From assembly GCA_043228905.1 (NCBI GenBank), contig JBHGNT010001329.1:1-9767 (forward strand): 9,767 nt of DNA. The letters run 5' to 3'. The stretch is from Azolla caroliniana (Eukaryota; Plantae; Polypodiophyta). This document shows, one piece after another, positions 1 through 9,767 of the stretch. The position numbers and the translations under genes are program-made. How positions within the stretch are numbered: position 1 is the stretch's first letter; each line of letters begins with the position of its first letter. The notes beneath the pieces were generated by a model that saw only the letters and a program-made list of their open reading frames with translations, did no database searches and was not told the origin of the DNA.

Positions 1-877
1 AGTACTGGCTATATTCGAGAGTCGAAAACGTTGATAGAAGTGTGGGGCAATCTCAAGAAGATTTTCACAACCAACACGGTCGCACGCAAGCTCCAACTTC
101 GACAGGAGTTAAACAATATGCAATAGAGGGAGATGTTAATCACCATCTATACCTTGAAGATCAAGGAGTTGTGTGATGCCCTTAGATCAATCAATGTCAT
201 CATCGACGATGAAGAAATGGTGTAAATATGCCTCAACGGCTTAGCACCATGATTCAACACAATTAGATCGGTCATTCTCGCAAGGGAGAATCCAGTGCCT
301 TCATTTTTCAACCTTCAATCGATACTATTGGTGGAAGAAAATCATACACGACAAAGGAGAAATGCACCAAATGGTCATATGCTCTACTCCAAGTCAGACG
401 ATAGAAGAGGATTCGGTTGAGGAAATAGAGGTCGATTCGGCTGAGGCCGACAAGGTCAACCGACCTGAGAACTCAACACCCACCATTGGCAAGTCAATAG
501 GCGCAATCCTAGAGAGTTCGGCAGAATGGGGAGTCATCCTACCAGACTGAGCCATCGCAACAACCCGATTGAATGCGGGTACTAGGGAAAACTCGACCAC
601 TACGAAGAGGAGTGCCAAAAGAAACAACGAGAGTCGACTTCGACTAGTTGAAACCTCACTAGATATGTTTCAAATTTCGACTATGACGATCGTGGCGGAA
701 TGTTCATGATGAGGCACAAAGCGCATTCAATGTTGACACAAGGAGAGACAAGTACCTCTCCTTCGGATAATATATGGTTTGTCGACTCCGGAGCATCCAA
801 TCATATGACGTCCCACGAAGATTGGTTCAATCGGCTCGCCTATGTCGAAACCGGAGATGACACAACTCACTCGATTC
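1..877 (+). pseudogene. gag-pol: Ty1/copia element A: decayed gag, zinc knuckle and N-terminal aspartic protease (5' part; continues upstream of the window)
   Basis: Frame +1 reads GYIRESKTLIEVWGNLKKIF...RKLQLRQELNNMQ*...YTLKIKELCDAL...CLNGL (copia gag_2/UBN2-like), then CGY*GKLDHYEEEC (CCHC knuckle, 574-615, second Cys lost), then WFVDSGASNHM (copia protease). Eight in-frame stops (124, 223, 250, 418, 442, 466, 583, 649) and no frameshift. Confidence 0.93.
873..877 (+). repeat. 5-bp target-site duplication GATTC (left copy; right copy at 2691-2695)
   Basis: GATTC directly precedes TGTCA at 878 and directly follows TGACA at 2690. Removing 878-2695 restores the copia frame (TTHSI|QHIENVPF). 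Confidence 0.95.
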
Positions 878-1304
878 TGTCAGGATTCGAACTCTTGACA
901 TAACCATGCTATAATCGAGTGTTATGTGTTAACCACACATCTAGCATATAATCATGTATATACTTCCTCATTGTAGGTTTTAGCTAGCATCATGTGCATA
1001 ATTTCTCCCTTGTATTATTAACACTTGGCACATGCATGCGTACCTATTGCCTACATACTCTATTGTATCACATGCGTGCACCAGGTATGCATGCCACTTA
1101 GTATAAATAGTTGAGTTCACCTTGAAGGAATTCAAGGTGAACAACGCCAGTCATGGACATATCAATCTAGTATTCTCATTTCACCCAATCTTGTCTCCTT
1201 AATCTTCATCTCTATCATTATGCTCTTGTGTCATTCCGTCATCGCTCCGCCATAGCCTCATCATCCGTGCTCCGTCTTAGTCCGCGCTTGGTGTGTCCGT
1301 GACA
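878..1304 (+). repeat. 5' LTR of element B (427 bp)
   Basis: Direct repeat of 2266-2690; starts TGTCA, ends TGACA. Confidence 0.95.
1102..1109 (+). promoter_or_regulatory. TATA box of element B LTR; predicted TSS ~1134
   Basis: TATAAATA lies 32 nt upstream of a C/A initiator-like step (1133/1134). The same motif is in the 3' LTR (2490-2497). Confidence 0.7.
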
Positions 1305-1306
1305 GT

Positions 1307-1317
1307 TTGTTCACCTT
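1307..1317 (+). promoter_or_regulatory. Self-priming primer-binding site (complementary to LTR 1134-1144)
   Basis: TTGTTCACCTT, 2 nt after the LTR end, is the exact reverse complement of AAGGTGAACAA (1134-1144). No TGG-starting tRNA PBS is present. Confidence 0.8.
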
Positions 1318-1500
1318 CCAACTAGAAGCATCACCCATCTCCGTCATCGCCCTTGCTTCTAGAGTTACCATCGTCACTGTACCATCATCAACATCGCTTC
1401 ATTTCTTATCTTCCTCGCCATTTCTATCTCCTAGTTTCTTCTCATCATTTTCATTGGCTTTATATTTCTCCTCATCATTGTCTCTATTTTTTAGTTTCTT

Positions 1501-2129
1501 TCCCGTTCGTGTTTGTGTTCCAGCTGTTAGTGAGGGCTACACAAGGCCGCTCACTCCCATTGGTGTTCGTGTTCTAGCTGCTAGTGAGGGCTACACAAGG
1601 CCGCTCACTCCCGTTGGTGTTCGTGTTCGAGTTCCTGGTGAGGGCCGCATGGTCGCTCACTCCCGTTCGTGTTCTAGTTTCCGGTGAGGACCACACATGG
1701 TCGCTCACTCCCGTTTGTGTTCTAGTCTCTGGTGAGGACCACACATGGTCGCTCATTCCAGTTATTTTTCATGTTCCACATCCTGGCGAGGACCGACATG
1801 GTCGCTCACTCTCGTTCGTGTTCCCGTCTCCGGTGAGGACCCACATGGTTGCTCACTCCAGTTATTTTTCATGTTCCACATCTTGGCGAGAACCAATATG
1901 GTTGGTCATGCCCATTACGGTTCATGTTCCAGTTCTTGGTGAGGACCACACGTCGCTCACTCCCGTTGGTGTTCATGTTCCAGTTCTCCGTGACGACCAC
2001 ACATGGTCTCTCATGCCTGTTGGTGTTCGTGTTCTCTATGAGAACCGCACATGGTCACTCACACCCGTTGATATTTGTGTTCCAATTCTAGGCGAGGACC
2101 ACACATGGTTGCTCATGCCTGTTGGTGTT
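1501..2129 (+). repeat. Tandem array of 12 full units (47-54 bp) plus a partial unit, each ending in a bulged hairpin
   Basis: Units start at 1501, 1555, 1609, 1661, 1709, 1757, 1810, 1857, 1910, 1961, 2015, 2063 and (partial) 2117. Consensus approx. TCCCGTTGGTGTTCGTGTTCCAGTTCCTG-GTGAGGACCACACATGGTCGCTCAC. Confidence 0.93.
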
Positions 2130-2227
2130 AAATACCTCGTCTTGTGGAAGGGTTACTCCTTGTCTAGGATTTACAAAATACTTTGGAGGTGATCTATGAT
2201 TGTCATCAACAATATCCCCTTAACCCG
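2130..2227 (+). pseudogene. Remnant of integrase C-terminal chromodomain
   Basis: KYLVLWKGYS (2130-2159) matches the YLVKWKGY motif. After a frameshifting deletion at ~2166 the sequence reads DLQNTLEVIYDCHQQYPLNP, resembling the L.NA.E.V..FH..YP.KP chromovirus tail. It sits just before the PPT, as expected. Confidence 0.75.
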
Positions 2228-2252
2228 ACAAACGATTTGGGAAGGCATCGTT

Positions 2253-2265
2253 GGAGGGGGGATAA
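2253..2265 (+). promoter_or_regulatory. Polypurine tract of element B
   Basis: GGAGGGGGGATAA abuts the TG of the 3' LTR. Confidence 0.9.
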
Positions 2266-2690
2266 TGTCAGGATTCGAACTCTTGACATAACCATGCTAT
2301 AATCGAGTGTTATGTGTTAACCACACATCTAGCATATAATCAAGTATATACTTCCTCATTGTAGGTTTTAGCTAGCATCATGTGCATAATTTCTCCCTTG
2401 TATTATTAACACTTGGCACATGCATGCGTACCTACTGCCTACATACTCTATTGTATCACATGCGTGCACCAGGTATGCATGCCACTTAGTATAAATAGTT
2501 GAGTTCACCTTGAAGGAATTCAAGGTGAACAACGCCAGTCATGGACATATCAATCTAGTATTCCCATTTTGCCCATCCTCTCTCCTTGATCTTCATCTCT
2601 ATCTTTATGCTCTTGTTCCTCGCGTCATCGCTCCGTCGTAGCCTCATCATCTGTGCTTTGTCTTAGTCCACGCTTGGTGTGTCCATGACA
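2266..2690 (+). repeat. 3' LTR of element B (425 bp)
   Basis: Direct repeat of 878-1304, followed by the TSD GATTC. Confidence 0.95.
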
Positions 2691-2695
2691 GATTC

Positions 2696-3157
2696 AACAT
2701 ATCGAAAATGTCCCATTCAGGAACGATGGCAAACAAACCTACCTCAAAAACGTCTTGCATGTCCCAACCATCACGAAAAATTTGGTCTTGATCGGCCAAG
2801 TAGTAGAACAAGGCATACAAGCGCGGTTCAATAATGAAGGGTGCTTCATTGAAAAAGACGATCAAATCATAGCGCACAGTCGTCGAGAAGGCCGAACGTT
2901 CATCCTCGAGTCGAGGGAGGTGAAATCTGACATGTTCGCAAACAACATCAAAGTCGAAACCGACTTGAAATTGTGGCACAAACGAATTAGCCACATCAAT
3001 CTCCAAAAGCTTAAAGGAATGCAGTTGAAAGGAGTCGTAATTGAACTCCCGACATTTACCGAAAAGGAAAAAGTTGGTGTATTTGAAACCTGCCAATTCG
3101 GCAAACAACACTGACAACCATTCTCGAAAGAGAGGAATGTGAGCAAAGGGACCTTGG
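2696..3157 (+). pseudogene. pol: Copia element A continued: protease C-terminal half and GAG-pre-integrase (HHCC) region, cut off before the integrase core
   Basis: YLKNVLHVPTITKNLVLIGQ...LWHKRISHIN...VFETCQFGKQH*QPFSKERNVSKGTL. Homology stops at the TGTTGAA LTR end at 3158, where (D/E)xxHSDVWGP would be expected. Confidence 0.92.
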
Positions 3158-3479
3158 TGTTGAAGACGCAGTTGTCTTGTGTGGAACAAATCAACACTCC
3201 CCTAAGGTGAGGATCATAAGTGGATGTCGGCAAGGTAGATTGATGGCATCAGAAACAGAAACAGAGAGATAAGACTCAACAAGAACGCAAGAGAGAGATG
3301 ATTAGGCACAAGATGAACTATATTTCAACAACCACCACACCACAAAACTAGGTTACAAAGTCAATTTATGTACTGACTGACTTAGGGCAACTGCCCTTCT
3401 CACTATTATAAATAGCCTAAACCTAGTGTGTATAGAAGGAAACAATGTGAATACGTTCATTAGAGACCCGCATTCAACA
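3158..3479 (-). repeat. 3' LTR of copia element C (322 bp)
   Basis: 7-bp terminal inverted repeat TGTTGAA...TTCAACA, adjacent PPT, and TATA-like CTATTTATA on - at 3407-3415. Only one copy is in the window. Confidence 0.8.
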
Positions 3480-3486
3480 CTCCCTC
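3480..3486 (-). promoter_or_regulatory. Polypurine tract of copia element C
   Basis: GAGGGAG on - directly precedes TGTTGAA. Confidence 0.75.
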
Positions 3487-3681
3487 GTAATGGGCGTATA
3501 CATCGAAATTCTGTAAATCAAAATAAATGTACAATATAGATTGATACAAAGTTTTCGAACAAATCAAAATTTCGTTCGAGTCGGTGAACTTCGAAAAACT
3601 AAAGGCCGAACTGGCCGAGGTTGGGGAGCCGAACTTCGAATTGTCGAAGTTGATTATTTGAAAACATCCTAAGTGTCCGAC

Positions 3682-4586
3682 TTAATCTGACTGATTCTTC
3701 GTTACGCCCATCTGGTGCCGAAGGGACTTCGCCACATCGGACGCAACGACATATTTGGCCTCGATCGTTAATGTGGCAATGCACTTCTGAAGTTTCGATT
3801 TCCACGAGATTGCTCCATTGCTGAACTTAAAGCAGTATCCGGTTGTCGATTTTCAATTGTCCACATAACTGGCAAAGTCTGAGTTGGTGTAGTTGACTAC
3901 GCTTGAAGTGTCGTTCGGACCGAATAGAATGCCAAGGTCTTTGTGCCCACCAGATATCTGAACACATGCTTTACTGCATTCCAGTGCGATCGGCTAGGGT
4001 TGTGCATGAATCTATTGACGACTCCTACGACGTGAGCAATGTCAGGTTGTGTCGCGACCATCGTGTACATCAGGGAGCCGACTGTCGGTGCATATGGTAC
4101 TGGCTTCATAGTTTCCCCCTCCGAACTGGATATCGGGCAGTCTCGGTGAGATAGTCGAAGGCTAATGGGGAGCGAGGTCGAAGCAGATTTCGTCGATTGC
4201 ATATTGAAGCATTCAAGGACATGTTTAATATAGTCAAATTGGGATAGAAACAATTGTCTTTGATTTCGATTTCGACTAATCTTCATGCCGAGAATGTATC
4301 TTGCCGAACTGAGGTCCTTCATGGCAAACTTCAACTGCAGTTGCCGAACGAGTTTGGCAAGCTCTCCGGCTTGCTGACCGGAGATTAGCATATCGTCCAT
4401 GTAGATGATGAGGAAGATGGGTGACCCATCTCAAGTTGTTTTCGTGAAGAGACAATGGTCCTCATCGCTCTTCGAGAAGCTGGCCGACTGAATGAAGTCA
4501 TTGAACTTCTTATACCACTGTTGCGGTGCTTGTTTTAGGCCGTAAAGACTCTTCCCGAGTCGATAGACTATATGTTCTTGGCTGGC
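3682..4586 (-). pseudogene. pol: Copia reverse transcriptase (C-terminal part) and RNase H, decayed
   Basis: KSLYGLKQAPQQWY...DHCLF...IIYMDDML...FAMKDLS...ILGM...VGSLMY...PDIAHVV...HWNAVKHVFRYL. After a 1-bp frameshift at ~3941: YTNSDFA...*KSTTGY...GAISWKSKLQ...EAKYV. Stops at 4431 and 3853; natural-looking stop at 3682-3684. Confidence 0.93.
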
Positions 4587-5120
4587 GCCCCTCACACTAT
4601 ATCTCCATATGTCTCCTTCCAAAACTACCCTCAATATCCTCAACCTGACCACACCATGGACCCATAATATGGTCCATATTAGGTGAGTAAAAAAAGCCTA
4701 CATCATGCAAGATGGCATAGAGCTAAATTTTTAGAGAGGTCACACATTTTCCTCATCGACTTTGGCTTCCGTCACCACAAAAACTATAATGCTCCTTGAG
4801 GTTAGGCCTACGACATCATTGCAAAATATTGGGGCCAAACCATCAATTGGAGTTGCTACAAGGTGTAAGCCATCACCTTAAACTTTAAATGACACAAGGG
4901 AAGAAGTTGTGAGAAACATCCCTCACCTAGTTGATGTTCATCTTGTTTCCCTATCCTCTCCTAGAGAAATGATTACCCAACCATATGGTCTCGTCATCTA
5001 CCAATACCACCCTGACCTCATCCATCCCTTTCCCACTTAGGAATCCTCTCCAAAAAATTTATCAGTGTCAACTATATGTGGAATACTTCTCATTGAAAAG
5101 AATACATAAAGATAAATAAA

Positions 5121-5149
5121 CTAGGATTACTCAATGCACGTTGTGCACC
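5121..5149 (-). mobile_element. Possible Helitron 3' terminus
   Basis: On -: (GG)TGCAC-AAC-GTGCA(TT) hairpin about 10 nt before CTAG|T. The stem is short and no 5' TC end could be assigned. Confidence 0.35.
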
Positions 5150-5859
5150 AAGTTGCAACACATACTTCACCTTAATGTAGGTAAAACTTTAGAGGGATGT
5201 TGATTTTGGAGAGTGTTAATGGATGTGAGACCATGTGTGCATTATGGCATGAGTATCGTGAATAAGACAACCATAATCTCCAATATAGTAGTTGGAAATT
5301 GACTATCCCGAACTATTCCAATAAAATTCACTCTACCAATTGATTATGCGTAGAATAACCAAATCGTTAGTAAGGGGGACCGTTGTCGTGAAGATTTTCG
5401 GCAATAGTGTGAAAATCCCATAAAACGTACAAAATCGAGTATAAATCATGTAATACAATAATTGTGAAGATAACATTTTTAATATCTAAGTACAAAATGA
5501 TGGAGGTTTTCGAATGCACTTTATTACACGAGAAATGGACAACTAAATGTCAAGATATGAGGGTATAAAGTTTGTGAAAAGAAAAGAGAAAATTGTGAGA
5601 TATCCCACATAGGCACGACAAATACGGCTCTCATCATATATAAGGTGGAGCAAAAGATATTATCTTTGTGTCTATGTGTGGAGCATAGAGAGTTCAAGGT
5701 AACTTGAACTTAGAGTGGAGGTGGCTAGCTACTTGAAAAGGGTTTTGGCCAACCAAAACCGGACCGGCGATGGAGCCGGTGATCCGACGGCATCCGGCGG
5801 CGGCACCGGTATCCGGCGACGGTATCCGGTGAACCGGCGACTAGATAAAATAAATATAT

Positions 5860-5949
5860 AAAAATATATATACAAGGAGGGCAAGTATGGATTCGAACCT
5901 TGCACCTCCAAGTTAGGAGTCAAATAGCTTACCATTAAGCCATAGTATT
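5860..5949 (-). ncRNA. tRNA-derived / SINE-head-like Pol III cassette inside the LTR (not a functional tRNA)
   Basis: A box TGGCTTAATGG (5942-5932) and B box GGTTCGAATCC (5899-5889), 32 nt apart. D-arm GCTT/AAGC; T5 run at 5864-5860. Acceptor and anticodon stems do not pair. Confidence 0.65.
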
Positions 5950-6029
5950 TAGTTGAAATTATATTTCTATCATTGTACTTTTACATGTAAATTCTCATCC
6001 ATGAGTGCTAAAATGAGTGACATGGTTAG

Positions 6030-6129
6030 CATGCACCACATGTAATACTTAAGCGCCAAATGGCAAACATGCAATTTATGCATGTCTTGTACCCTCACAT
6101 GCATCATATGCATGAGAGCATCTATAAAA
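6030..6129 (+). promoter_or_regulatory. Candidate LTR core promoter: five RY (CATGCA/TGCATG) motifs followed by TATAAAA
   Basis: RY at 6030, 6068, 6079, 6098 and 6109; TATAAAA at 6123-6129. An alternative TATATAA lies at 5637-5643. Confidence 0.55.
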
Positions 6130-6350
6130 GAGGGAAGGGGGAGGAGAAAAACACGGTTTTTTTTATGAAAATTAAGAGGAAGAAATTCGTTATCAAATTG
6201 ATCGTGTAATCTCAACTTCTCTCTTTTCCAATCTATCTTAAGTACTTTCTTGCCAAAGCTTGTATCGACTCTAAATCCTTCCGGTCCAGAACCCCGGCGG
6301 TTCCGCCTCACGATCCCCGCGTAGTGACGGATCTTCACGACATAATAAAG

Positions 6351-6368
6351 TGGTGAACCCGACGTGAA
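6351..6368 (+). promoter_or_regulatory. Primer-binding site, tRNA-Trp
   Basis: TGGTGAACCCGACGTGAA is the reverse complement of TTCACGTCGGGTTCACCA, the 3' end of plant cytosolic tRNA-Trp as I recall it. Confidence 0.85.
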
Positions 6369-6409
6369 AGAGGCAGTAGGAAGGATCAAGTCGAGATTAA
6401 TACTTGGAG

Positions 6410-8608
6410 ATGGCGTCCTCAAGCAACCAAGCGGGAGAGCTCGAAAGGATGATGCTAATCGTCGAGCAAATGATGAGATCTCGGGACAACGACGCGAGCG
6501 TGGAGAAGGCTGTCGATCGTGTCGTAGAGCTCGAGGGCCAATTCGATGGAAGGAACGTTACGAAGTTCCTTGATGCATATAAGAGGGAGATGAATCAAAG
6601 GGACGTGTCCGAGGCACGTCAAATCGCAAGCTTCAAGAGAGTTGTCGCCAACAACATCCAAAGACGCGTCATCGAGCTTCAAGAAGGAAAGACAACATGG
6701 TCCGAGTTCGAGAAAACGATACTAGCGGAGTTTGTGACTGAAGACTCAACGAGGATGACTCGACATGCCCTGATGAAGTGGATAGAGAAGAAGAATAAGA
6801 AGATGAGCGTCTCGAGGGTGTACGACGAATTCGACCAGATGTTTAGTCGTCTCCCCAATACGGACCAAGTATTGCTTGAAGAGGACAAGACTTTGTACTT
6901 CTTGAAGGCCGTGGACATAAAGGATAGACGGGAGTTGGGGACTCTTCTCGAAGATGATACCCAAGCAAATGGGCTCGTAGTGGACTGGATCGCGGTGAAG
7001 CAGGCATGCAATAGGCTCGACAAGCGTCGCCAATGGGTTGATGACACTGACTTAACGGGACCGACTACCACGGAGAAAGCAAGACCACCGAAAGTAGCTG
7101 AGCCGCCAAGACAAAGTAACGTGGAAGAAAAGAAGATTGATGACGACAGCATTGAAGAGCTAGCGAAGAAGTTCGAGAAGGTCACTCTAGCCAACATGAA
7201 TCGTCGGGGCCCTAAAGGAAAAGAACCCTTTAGATGCGTGTGGTGCGATAGCATGGACCACATGAGAAGGGATTGTGCGAGCCTTCGAGAGGCGATTCGA
7301 CAAAATATCGTATACATAGAGGACAACATGATTTGCTCAAGCGAGACTAGAAGACCCCTACGGGTGAATTTCGGAAGAGGAGGAATGAAGAGATCTATGG
7401 AGGATGCCGATGCGACTCATGTGGATGCGATGCACTATGCTGCGTCGGCCGGAATAAGAGTCGGGAAAGACAAGACTGAAGTTGCTAGAGCGGGAGCAAA
7501 GTTTTGGACTTCCGTTCTCGAATATGAGAAGAAAGGAAAAATCACATCGAACGAGGTAGAGCTTGCGGACCGAAGCGTGCAAAGCATAACCGGGTGGTCG
7601 GATCCGGTGGACGACAACACCATACTTGCAGAGGTGATGTGCGACAACCACGAGGTGTTCGTCGAAGAAAAGAGAAAGAGAATAGAAGAGCAAGGGCCAT
7701 CAAAAAGACATGAAACAAGGAACGCGAAAAAGAAGGACGATGCGGAGACGAGTCGACCTTTACAAACGGAGGAACGAGAATCAAGCCGAAAAGGAGAGCC
7801 AAGCATACGAGTTGAAGAAACGGTTCGGCCCGTGAAGGTTGGTGTCGAAGACCCCGCTCGGAGGACAAGGACCATACCTACCTATAAGCTAAGGTCGGAC
7901 ATAGAGCAGATGACGGACCTAAAGAAGATTCTCGAAGAACGAGTTCTTGATAGCCATGTAACTTTGTCCTTGAGGGAATTGCTTGGCATTACGAAGAAGG
8001 AGTTCCATGACACGATCGTGGACCTTGTAAAGAGAAAGAGACAACAATCGGACGAGGAAGAAGAGAAGCCGCAGAAAGCAAAAACGAATGCCATAACGAT
8101 GGCAAGAGACGAAATCGATGAAGATATGGTGGACAGCCACTACACTCGACCTCATTGGGCACGAGCGACAACGGAGACGCCGGTGAAGATCGGGGAGAAG
8201 AAAGAGACCGTCGTAGCCTTGATCGACCACGGCTCGGAGATCAACCTCATGTCAACCGACTTCTACAAAAAGGGAAGATGGCCAATTAATACAAACCACG
8301 GATGGAAGATTTGCGCGGCAACAAAGTCTACGGAGGACTTGTACGGAGCTTGTCCCAATGTCAAAGTCACGATCGGGGATGTGGAGATGGATCAACACTT
8401 CTTCGTACAAGAATCGGCATCGCATCCTGTCATCCTAGGGCAACCTTATATCACATCATCTCGGATGGAGACCAAAGTGTTCGATAATGGAGCAGCCTTC
8501 GCACGAATAAAGAGTCTTGACAACCAAAGATCAGTCCAATTCCTAACGGTGCGAGCCAATCATGAAAGGAATCGAGATAGTCTCGGAGGCGAATCCTCGG
8601 ATTTTTAG
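6410..8608 (+). CDS. gag: Gag-protease polyprotein (732 aa)
   Basis: ATG at 6410 (GAGATGG; the ORF track started at TTG 6404). FDGRNVTKFL capsid-like start; CVWCDSMDHMRRDC knuckle (7235-7276); YKLRSDIE...VTLSLRELL (DUF4100-like); retropepsin ALIDHGSEINLM (8225) and VILGQP. Confidence 0.92.
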   Translation: MASSSNQAGELERMMLIVEQMMRSRDNDASVEKAVDRVVELEGQFDGRNVTKFLDAYKREMNQRDVSEARQIASFKRVVANNIQRRVIELQEGKTTWSEFEKTILAEFVTEDSTRMTRHALMKWIEKKNKKMSVSRVYDEFDQMFSRLPNTDQVLLEEDKTLYFLKAVDIKDRRELGTLLEDDTQANGLVVDWIAVKQACNRLDKRRQWVDDTDLTGPTTTEKARPPKVAEPPRQSNVEEKKIDDDSIEELAKKFEKVTLANMNRRGPKGKEPFRCVWCDSMDHMRRDCASLREAIRQNIVYIEDNMICSSETRRPLRVNFGRGGMKRSMEDADATHVDAMHYAASAGIRVGKDKTEVARAGAKFWTSVLEYEKKGKITSNEVELADRSVQSITGWSDPVDDNTILAEVMCDNHEVFVEEKRKRIEEQGPSKRHETRNAKKKDDAETSRPLQTEERESSRKGEPSIRVEETVRPVKVGVEDPARRTRTIPTYKLRSDIEQMTDLKKILEERVLDSHVTLSLRELLGITKKEFHDTIVDLVKRKRQQSDEEEEKPQKAKTNAITMARDEIDEDMVDSHYTRPHWARATTETPVKIGEKKETVVALIDHGSEINLMSTDFYKKGRWPINTNHGWKICAATKSTEDLYGACPNVKVTIGDVEMDQHFFVQESASHPVILGQPYITSSRMETKVFDNGAAFARIKSLDNQRSVQFLTVRANHERNRDSLGGESSDF

Positions 8609-8661
8609 AGCGAACTATTGAAGCATGGGGCACAAATAGTCCGAGTAATCACAAGACCCCA
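8599..8661 (+). promoter_or_regulatory. Predicted -1 programmed ribosomal frameshift signal
   Basis: G_GAT_TTT directly before the gag TAG. Pol is open in the -1 frame, and a stem-loop or pseudoknot can begin 5 nt downstream. Confidence 0.75.
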
Positions 8662-9767
8662 CAAGAAAGAAGAGTGCGTGGATTGCGAGGAGAAGCAACA
8701 TGTGTCACACCTAGTGGCGCATGTAAACTAGTACTACCCGACAAGAAGCACAAGCACCGGATACAAGAATTCGAGAAGATGCTGAAAGAAGAGAACATAA
8801 TAGAAGAAGGGGAGTTCGTGACTCATATTATGGAAGAAGCCTCATTTAACGACACCATTGGCGATATCGAGGACGTCGTGGACTTGAGCTATCTTCACAA
8901 CCAATGCGTGATTTCGGTTAACTCCGTCAACATGTACGCTATCATCGATGAATACCGTCGTGGCATCTCGATGAAGGAAGTTGACATCAACACGAAATAT
9001 AAAACGGTGGATAAGAAGATCAAGCCAGTTGCGGTTCCGCTACCGGAAGATAGCTGGCAAAAGATGAAGGAAGTCGCTAACGATCCAAGCTTAAGAGATC
9101 CGAAGAAGATAGGTCATGACTTCACCAAAGAGACGAAGGGGAAGCTACGAGTTGGAAAGGAGGATTTCCTTCTCCCTGAAGAGGAGCGAATGTTTCGCGA
9201 TATGCTTGAGAGACATGGGAAGGCTTTCACATTCTTCCCACGAGAAATCGGATGTGCCGACCCAAAGATTATAGAGCCAATGGTGATCTTCACGGTGCCT
9301 CATGTGCCTTGGAATTTGAAACCAATACCGGTTCCGAGAGCACACCTTCCGAAGCTGATCGAGCTCTTAAAGGAGAAGGTGAGTATGGGAATTCTAGAAC
9401 CGTCGAATGCTCCTTATTCCAATAGGTGGTTCACGGTGCCGAAGAAGAATGGATCATTGCGATTCATCCAAGATCTTCAACCCGTCAACAAGGTGACAAT
9501 TCGAAATGCCGGAATCGGTCCGAGCGTGGATGAATTTGTCGAAGCGTTTGCGGGCCGGTCCATCTACTCCATTGGCGATCTCTACTCCGGATATGACCAA
9601 TTCCAATTGGCGATCGACAGTCGGGACATTACAACCATGAGGACTCCGATCGGGCTTGTGCGGATGTGTACCTTACCCCAAGGCGCAACGAACTCGGTGG
9701 CTCATATGGTGAATGCCATGAATAAAGTCTTGAAGGATTGTATTCCGGACATCACGATGCCATTCTT
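8599..9767 (+). CDS. pol: Pol (reverse transcriptase N-terminal part), 3'-partial; absent from the ORF track because it runs off the window
   Basis: Frame +1 has no stop from 8599 to the window end: ...GILEPSNAPYSNRWFTVPKKNGSLRFIQDLQPVNK...GDLYSGYDQ...TPIGLVRMCTLPQGATNSVAH...ITMPF, ending just before the expected xDD motif. Confidence 0.93.

What the first reader, a model, noticed from the sequence alone, without database searches (positions are those of the whole stretch)
1134..1317. Non-autonomous LTR element with an exact 11-nt Tf1-type self-primer instead of a tRNA PBS
Seen: no TGG-type PBS follows the 5' LTR. Instead 1307-1317 (TTGTTCACCTT) is perfectly complementary to 1134-1144 (AAGGTGAACAA), which starts 32 nt after the TATA box, at the predicted +1. 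Known: S. pombe Tf1 and related chromoviruses prime by folding the first 11 nt of the transcript onto the PBS, followed by RNase H cleavage. Inference: this 1.8-kb non-coding element self-primes and borrows RT/RNase H from an autonomous Tcn1/Tf1-like partner. The TRIM/LARD-type elements I know of in plants are typically tRNA-primed, so a self-priming non-autonomous family may be undescribed.
Basis: partly seen in the sequence, partly recalled or inferred. Interest (0 to 1): 0.85.

Follow-up and report, generated by a model that had tools for sequence, protein, structure and literature searches.

The report
Self-priming non-coding plant retrotransposon family
A 1.8-kb non-coding jumping element has a primer site that pairs with an 11-base stretch of its own repeat, and relatives change both sides together, so it likely starts its own copying without a host tRNA, a trick already predicted for the plant elements it appears to descend from.

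Summary
Observation confirmed. Window 878-2690 is a complete non-coding LTR element (TG..CA ends, 5-bp target duplication, polypurine tract) inserted in a copia pol. Bases 1307-1317 pair perfectly with 1134-1144, exactly 11 bp, 32 nt after the TATA box.

Among 25 LTR-PBS junctions (window plus 24 from metagenome contigs) there are three primer types, with two-sided changes at 4 of 11 pairs; 19 of 25 pair fully, three of them through G-U. Against: 3 of 25 are cross-type mismatches (assembly chimeras or recombinants) and 3 are decayed. A second duplex (R with U5) is conserved.

New here: the internal 3' end is a chromodomain relic, which points to a chromovirus parent (likely Tcn1) rather than the other self-priming plant lineage, TAR copia. 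The host is probably a non-seed plant.

Not shown: the start site, the cleavage, and a full autonomous partner. Self-priming is already predicted for 83% of plant Tcn1 elements, so the mechanism is expected; I found no published self-priming non-autonomous plant family in eight searches. This scan noted similar miniature elements in fungi earlier. Moderate interest.

The parts
873..877 (+). Left target-site duplication GATTC
   Evidence: identical to 2691-2695
878..1304 (+). 5' LTR, 427 bp, TG..CA
1102..1108 (+). TATA box (TATAAAT); the primer segment starts 32 nt after its first base
1115..1142 (.). Perfect 12-bp palindrome across the predicted U3/R border; its 3' arm overlaps primer bases 1-9
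1134..1144 (+). Predicted 11-nt self-primer (predicted +1 to +11)
1150..1165 (+). R arm of the second duplex (pairs with 1288-1303)
1288..1303 (+). U5 arm of the second duplex
1307..1317 (+). Primer-binding site, 2 nt behind the LTR, no TGG
1305..2265 (+). Internal domain, 961 bp; its two long stop-free frames on the + strand have no Pfam match and there is no Rfam match
1501..2129 (+). Array of degenerate 48-54-bp repeats, about 12 copies
2133..2265 (+). Chromodomain relic in two out-of-frame pieces (2133-2165 reads YLVLWKGYSLS; 2168-2265 is the C-terminal part); the middle is missing
2253..2265 (+). Polypurine tract GGAGGGGGGATAA
2266..2690 (+). 3' LTR, 425 bp; 21 differences from the 5' LTR, 19 of them behind the primer
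2691..2695 (+). Right target-site duplication GATTC
652..877 (+). Host copia pol, Pol_BBD profile positions 1-33, left of the insertion
2696..3114 (+). Host copia pol continued: Pol_BBD 42-80 and GAG-pre-integrase
   Evidence: the empty site is seen as loose ends behind 877 in 3 of 4 runs among the rows shown

Best explanation
This is a non-coding LTR retrotransposon, likely a deletion derivative of a Tcn1-type chromovirus, whose RNA is predicted to start at 1134 and fold its first 11 bases onto the primer-binding site, where a partner element's RNase H would cut them off to serve as the primer, as in Tf1. Shown: complete LTR anatomy with target duplication; exact 11-bp complementarity; fixed spacing to the TATA box; compensatory change across subfamilies; a conserved R/U5 duplex next to it; a chromodomain relic before the polypurine tract. 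Inferred: start site at 1134; cleavage between +11 and +12; packaging, reverse transcription and integration by proteins of an autonomous chromovirus of the same genome.
For: Three primer/PBS types: A AAGGTGAACAA/TTGTTCACCTT, B AAGGGATTCAA/TTGAATCCCTT, C AAGGCGAACAA/TTGTTCGCCTT. 19 of 25 junctions pair fully (16 Watson-Crick, 3 with G-U) against 12.2 after permuting PBS among rows, p 2e-4 (rows are related, so p is optimistic). 4 of 11 primer:PBS pairs change on both sides and 95.3% of cells pair; both helices together 94.4% against 30-45% when slid by 1-3 columns. RNAalifold finds both helices unaided on 15 rows, chosen without the cross-type junctions. The segment between primer and PBS varies from 52 to 363 nt while the primer stays at TATA+32 (+36 in L025, which has a duplicated TATA). 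Type B also appears in raw assemblies: primer-side loose ends in 4 of 4 runs and a PBS-side loose end in X3. Chromodomain relic: only Pfam hit is Chromo, E 0.11, below cut-off. In 4 of 4 runs, contigs leave the window at 2131 and at 2165, and the loose letters read by eye in frame as chromodomain sequence with a TWEP motif. Known: Tf1 uses its first 11 bases with RNase H cleavage (PMC7175516); Tcn1 of mosses and club-mosses is predicted to self-prime (PMC6317226).
Against: 3 of 25 junctions join a type-B primer to a type-A PBS (L001, L008, L022; 4 mismatches each) and 3 of 25 have 1-2 mismatches (L011, L015, L023). L007, left out of the alignment, has 2 mismatches and 3 G-U. The third duplex of the Tf1 'pretzel' was not established: in the window the best PBS-3'-flank duplex is matched by 60 of 100 shuffles. 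If transcription starts upstream of 1115, the palindrome lowers primer:PBS pairing in the window from 0.94 to 0.30. The search pattern fixed the last 15 nt of U5 and the first 3 PBS bases, so conservation at those positions is partly built in. The A/B difference is one block that could be a single event. SM-Tcn1 of Selaginella was reported with no sign of self-priming (PMC2864245).
Confidence: 0.85

Rival explanations
1. The pairing is a leftover from several self-priming autonomous parents, and the non-coding copies are primed in trans by an 11-mer cut from a co-packaged RNA rather than by their own 5' end.
For: Cross-type B-primer/A-PBS junctions exist in 3 of 25 rows. The two window LTRs look as if their R-U5 came from two different RNAs, which implies co-packaging.
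Against: The cross-type junctions lie in contigs of coverage 9-34 (contig names); two of the three contigs are tandem and switch between A and B modules at both shared repeats, as assembly through collapsed repeats would. PBS variants that keep pairing through G-U occur in two groups about 80% alike.
Confidence: 0.08
2. Priming uses a host tRNA or half-tRNA, and the match to the LTR is incidental or due to local inverted duplication.
For: No host tRNA set was available to test. The LTR holds a second near-copy of the PBS at 1113-1123 (9 of 11), so inverted duplications do occur here.
Against: No TGG behind the LTR. Three PBS types each match their own LTR segment at a fixed distance from TATA. 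G-U-compatible variants fit RNA pairing.
Confidence: 0.03
3. It self-primes, but the partner is a TAR-type copia or another lineage, and the chromodomain-like piece is captured or chance sequence.
For: TAR is predicted to self-prime in 89% of 203 elements. The Pfam hit is weak (E 0.11). Type-B elements have a different 3' end without the relic. Group I chromodomains also occur in Galadriel-clade elements of Selaginella (PMC3350952).
Against: The relic sits directly before the polypurine tract, where a chromovirus integrase ends. Contigs with the intact neighbouring residues exist in 4 of 4 runs. Galadriel is 90% tRNA-Met primed.
Confidence: 0.07

Closest known systems
Plant Tcn1 chromoviruses of mosses and club-mosses (Tf1/sushi group; PMC6317226, PMC2864245, PMC3350952)
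   Same: PBS complementary to the 5' LTR by the Neumann criterion (10 bp or more, 0-5 bp behind the LTR); 5-bp target duplication; LTR of about 430 bp (SM-Tcn1: 440); chromo-box with W and Y retained.
   Different: 1.8 kb against an average of 6.4 kb; no gag or pol; internal tandem array; only a broken chromodomain piece is left.
Tf1/Tf2 of Schizosaccharomyces pombe, Tj1, Tosmo1-3
   Same: 11-nt primer:PBS duplex next to an R/U5 duplex, PBS just behind the LTR.
   Different: Non-autonomous, plant host; third pretzel duplex not established; a U3/R palindrome overlaps the primer; nothing tested at the bench.
Plant non-autonomous LTR elements (TRIM, LARD and the 115 sugar-beet families of PMC13570524)
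   Same: LTRs, PBS, polypurine tract, no coding capacity, many insertions.
   Different: Those are described with tRNA-derived PBS (the sugar-beet screen took PBS motifs from a tRNA database); this one has a self-complementary PBS. It is larger than a TRIM (under 1 kb, repeats of 100-250 bp per PMC6934838).
TAR lineage of Ty1/copia (Houba, Osr-1)
   Same: Predicted self-priming in plants; 5-bp target duplication.
   Different: Copia elements have no chromodomain in the table; the relic here argues for a gypsy chromovirus.

Membership tests
Self-priming Tf1/sushi-Tcn1 elements | 10 or more bases starting 0-5 bp behind the 5' LTR are complementary to the LTR, and there is no tRNA PBS | tested here: met
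   11 of 11 at offset 2; no TGG; 19 of 25 junctions pair fully
Self-priming Tf1/sushi-Tcn1 elements | The self-primer is the 5' end of the transcript | not testable with these tools
   Only indirect: constant TATA+32. No holder on record as RNA; contigs cannot show starts.
Self-priming Tf1/sushi-Tcn1 elements | Three-duplex 'pretzel' RNA structure | tested here: inconclusive
   Two duplexes found and conserved; third not above shuffles in the window, at most 5 of 100 shuffles in only 4 of 25 rows
Self-priming Tf1/sushi-Tcn1 elements | [quoted passage not shown] | not testable with these tools
   Needs RNA or cDNA ends
Chromovirus descent | Chromodomain-derived sequence directly before the polypurine tract | tested here: met
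   Relic YLVLWKGY at 2133; Pfam Chromo E 0.11, below cut-off; in-frame chromodomain neighbours in loose ends of 4 of 4 runs. Type A only.
Tcn1 clade | RT, RNase H and integrase group with Tcn1 | not testable with these tools
   The element has no such domain; the autonomous partner was not retrieved
Tcn1 clade | 5-bp target-site duplication and TG..CA ends | tested here: met
   100% 5-bp in Tcn1, but shared with most lineages
Non-autonomous LTR retrotransposon | LTRs, PBS and polypurine tract without intact coding domains | tested here: met
   of 73 filtered frames from the loci, 6 had Pfam hits (copia or gypsy domains or a zinc knuckle), and none was a chromodomain
TRIM | Under 1 kb, terminal repeats of 100-250 bp, tRNA-complementary PBS | tested here: not met
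   1813 bp, LTRs of 427 and 425 bp, no tRNA-type PBS (definition)
TAR copia derivative | Copia-type coding remnants, no chromodomain | tested here: not met
   The only coding remnant is chromodomain-like

The most novel reading that the evidence does not exclude
The first self-priming non-autonomous LTR family in a plant: a natural series of three primer/PBS pairs plus G-U variants that validates Tf1-type priming outside fungi, with a co-evolving U3/R hairpin that hides the 3' copy of the primer, and with LTR asymmetry and cross-type junctions that record template switching between co-packaged RNAs just behind the cleaved primer.
Probability: 0.25. Interest if true: 0.62.

Novelty: new variant of a known kind. 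Interest (0 to 1): 0.42.

Why it matters
In the papers I read, self-priming in plants rests on single-element sequence complementarity (PMC6317226). This family adds compensatory changes and G-U tolerance, which is comparative evidence that the pairing is kept at RNA level. Screens that take PBS motifs from tRNA databases (as in PMC13570524) would tend to miss or misclassify such abundant elements. A short, high-copy, non-coding substrate also makes the start site, the cleavage and the strand-transfer route directly testable in a plant. The mechanism itself is not new.

Tried and rejected
No host genome is held, so copy number, young-copy statistics and the autonomous partner could not be taken from an assembly.

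No RNA holder listed; X16 is probably DNA. Nothing is said on expression.

Partner searches that failed: the 44-residue frame over the relic gave 2 candidates and no hit at E 10 or better; phmmer with the 33-residue piece gave one hit, a TPR protein, rejected as spurious; the relic DNA pattern had 0 matches in genome contigs and viral contigs; the U5 pattern had 0 matches in viral contigs; no chromodomain among 73 frames from the loci.

The copia gag upstream of the PBS in L006 has its own LTR and is a neighbour, not the partner. The gypsy at 6349-9767 has a TGG-type PBS and is not the partner.

Rfam: 0 matches in 860-2710. ARAGORN: 0 tRNAs in 26 loci, so no host tRNA test was possible. The third pretzel duplex was inconclusive. 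Summed depths were not used as copy numbers.

Rows left out of alignment A1: L006 (LTR truncated, no primer), L012 and L018 (contig starts inside the LTR), L009 (match is the reverse complement of an R region, no PBS), L007 (degenerate, checked apart) and two duplicate junctions in L008.

Full report
Observation. Window 878-2690 is a complete LTR element of 1813 bp: LTRs 878-1304 and 2266-2690 with TG..CA ends, GATTC duplicated at 873-877 and 2691-2695, and a purine tract at 2253-2265. It splits a copia Pol_BBD domain: profile positions 1-33 lie left and 42-80 right of it, and the empty site shows as loose ends behind 877. Two bases behind the 5' LTR, 1307-1317 is the exact complement of 1134-1144, which starts 32 nt after TATAAAT at 1102. 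The duplex is exactly 11 bp. The chance expectation is 1.6e-4 for the whole LTR. There is no TGG behind the LTR.

RNA structure. Folded from 1134, the RNA forms the primer:PBS helix and, next to it, a 16-bp duplex of 1150-1165 with 1288-1303 (z -3.93, 0 of 200 shuffles). Tf1 needs three duplexes (10.1101/2022.12.06.519325, passages). Two are present here; a third, with the PBS 3' flank, is not above chance in the window (60 of 100 shuffles as good) and reaches 5 or fewer of 100 in 4 of 25 rows. If the RNA began upstream of it, it would take the primer (pairing probability 0.94 falls to 0.30). In the predicted transcript 1134-2600 it instead hides the 3' copy of the primer (0.98) and leaves the PBS to the 5' copy (0.94). 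The palindrome is perfect in types A and C, with an A-U to G-C change, but only partial in type B (75.9% of cells paired overall). Its role is a hypothesis.

Relatives. A search for runs listed 21, of which 20 hold part of the element, none at half of its words or more. Four laid runs from four coded organisms gave 3290-7278 contigs each, and 43-59 contigs with unrelated flanks behind the LTR end in three of them, so there are many insertions. A scan of metagenome contigs with a 20-base U5-end pattern gave 27 matches in 26 loci. With the window, 25 LTR-PBS junctions from 21 loci were aligned (dropped rows are listed under Tried and rejected). Three primer types occur, each at the same distance from TATA, while the stretch from primer start to LTR end varies from 52 to 363 nt. 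16 junctions pair Watson-Crick throughout, 3 pair with one or two G-U, 3 have 1-2 mismatches, and 3 join a B primer to an A PBS. The dropped L007 is degenerate. Four of 11 pairs change on both sides, 0 of 500 shuffles reach the paired fraction, and sliding the partner drops it from 94% to 30-45%. The rows are related and the pattern fixed part of U5 and three PBS bases, so these controls overstate significance; the type-specific matching is the real evidence. The G-U variants occur in two groups about 80% alike, which suggests they were inherited through transposition (inference). The cross-type junctions sit in contigs of coverage 9-34; the tandem ones switch between A and B modules at both shared repeats. 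Assembly chimeras are the simpler reading, but template switching just behind a cleaved primer would give the same structure, and I cannot tell them apart.

Origin. The internal domain has no Pfam or Rfam match and is mostly a 48-54-bp array. Its last 133 bp are a chromodomain relic: 2133-2165 reads YLVLWKGYSLS and the C-terminal part follows out of frame. Pfam gives Chromo as the only hit at E 0.11, below cut-off. In 4 of 4 laid runs, other contigs match 2131-2165 and leave the window on both sides with letters that I read by eye as in-frame chromodomain sequence, including TWEP. So less-deleted chromodomain copies exist in these genomes. The motif fits the chromo-box of PMC3350952 (passages). 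In plants, self-priming is predicted for Tcn1 (83% of 1500) and TAR copia (89% of 203), while Galadriel is 90% tRNA-Met primed (PMC6317226, passages and supplementary table MOESM5). Chromodomain plus self-primer therefore points to Tcn1, but no RT or integrase was recovered, so membership is inferred. Type-B elements have another 3' end without the relic. The host is not known; among the 120 listed relatives of the neighbouring gypsy RT, those that name an organism are from the liverwort Riccia and the fern Adiantum at about 70% identity, which suggests a non-seed plant.

Mechanism. Most likely (0.85) the RNA starts at 1134, folds its first 11 bases onto the PBS, is cut after base 11 by a partner's RNase H as in Tf1 (PMC7175516, passages; PMC4600332, passages), and is copied and integrated by proteins of an autonomous chromovirus. 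Start site, cleavage and partner are inferred. One side observation fits co-packaging: the two window LTRs differ at 2 of 256 positions in predicted U3 but 19 of 171 in R-U5 (p 1.3e-6). This suggests that the two R-U5 segments came from different RNAs (intermolecular plus-strand transfer is recalled for yeast Ty elements, from no call) or gene conversion. On the U3 figure the insertion is young.

Novelty. Eight literature searches listed no paper describing a self-priming non-autonomous plant LTR family; the library lacks most subscription journals and I read passages only. TRIMs are defined with a tRNA PBS (PMC6934838, passages), and the six PBS motifs of 115 sugar-beet families are tRNA-derived, from a screen built on tRNA motifs (PMC13570524, passages). 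SM-Tcn1 was reported without evident self-priming (PMC2864245, passages). Supplementary files 1 and 3 of PMC6317226 were too large to read and may list related elements. Earlier notes of this scan describe self-priming miniature elements in fungi (unchecked), and none matched this DNA. A deletion derivative keeping its parent's priming signals is expected, so this is a new variant of a known kind. Its value lies in the natural compensatory series. Interest 0.42.

Noticed in passing
window 878-1304 against 2266-2690: LTR differences are lopsided: 2 of 256 before the predicted start and 19 of 171 behind it. LTR-pair dating would overstate the age.
   Followed up: partly
window 1115-1142 and 2503-2530; L024 at 792-819: Perfect U3/R palindrome overlapping the primer, with one compensatory change between types A and C and only partial pairing in type B.
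   Followed up: partly
L003, L008, L022: Tandem LTR-internal-LTR-internal contigs mixing A and B modules; L008 repeats with a period of 3283. Either tandem arrays or assembly artefacts.
   Followed up: partly
window 6349-9767: Gypsy element with a TGG-type PBS at about 6351 (recalled as the complement of the tRNA-Trp 3' end, not tested), a 735-codon gag-like frame (DUF4100) and an RT frame that begins in another reading frame. Phygy-like by its PBS; no chromodomain is listed among the 120 relatives.
   Followed up: partly
window 3897-4697, minus strand: Broken copia RT fragments (RVT_2) of a second element in opposite orientation, which appears to interrupt the first copia near 3155 (boundaries read by eye).
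   Followed up: no
L013 (primer start to LTR end 52 nt) and L009:611-670: An LTR whose R-U5 is cut down to little more than the two duplex arms, and an R region that is the perfect reverse complement of the U5 end.
   Followed up: no
L024:923-1371: Type-C family with a divergent U3 and internal domain that still carries the GGTCGCTCAC motif of the tandem array.
   Followed up: no
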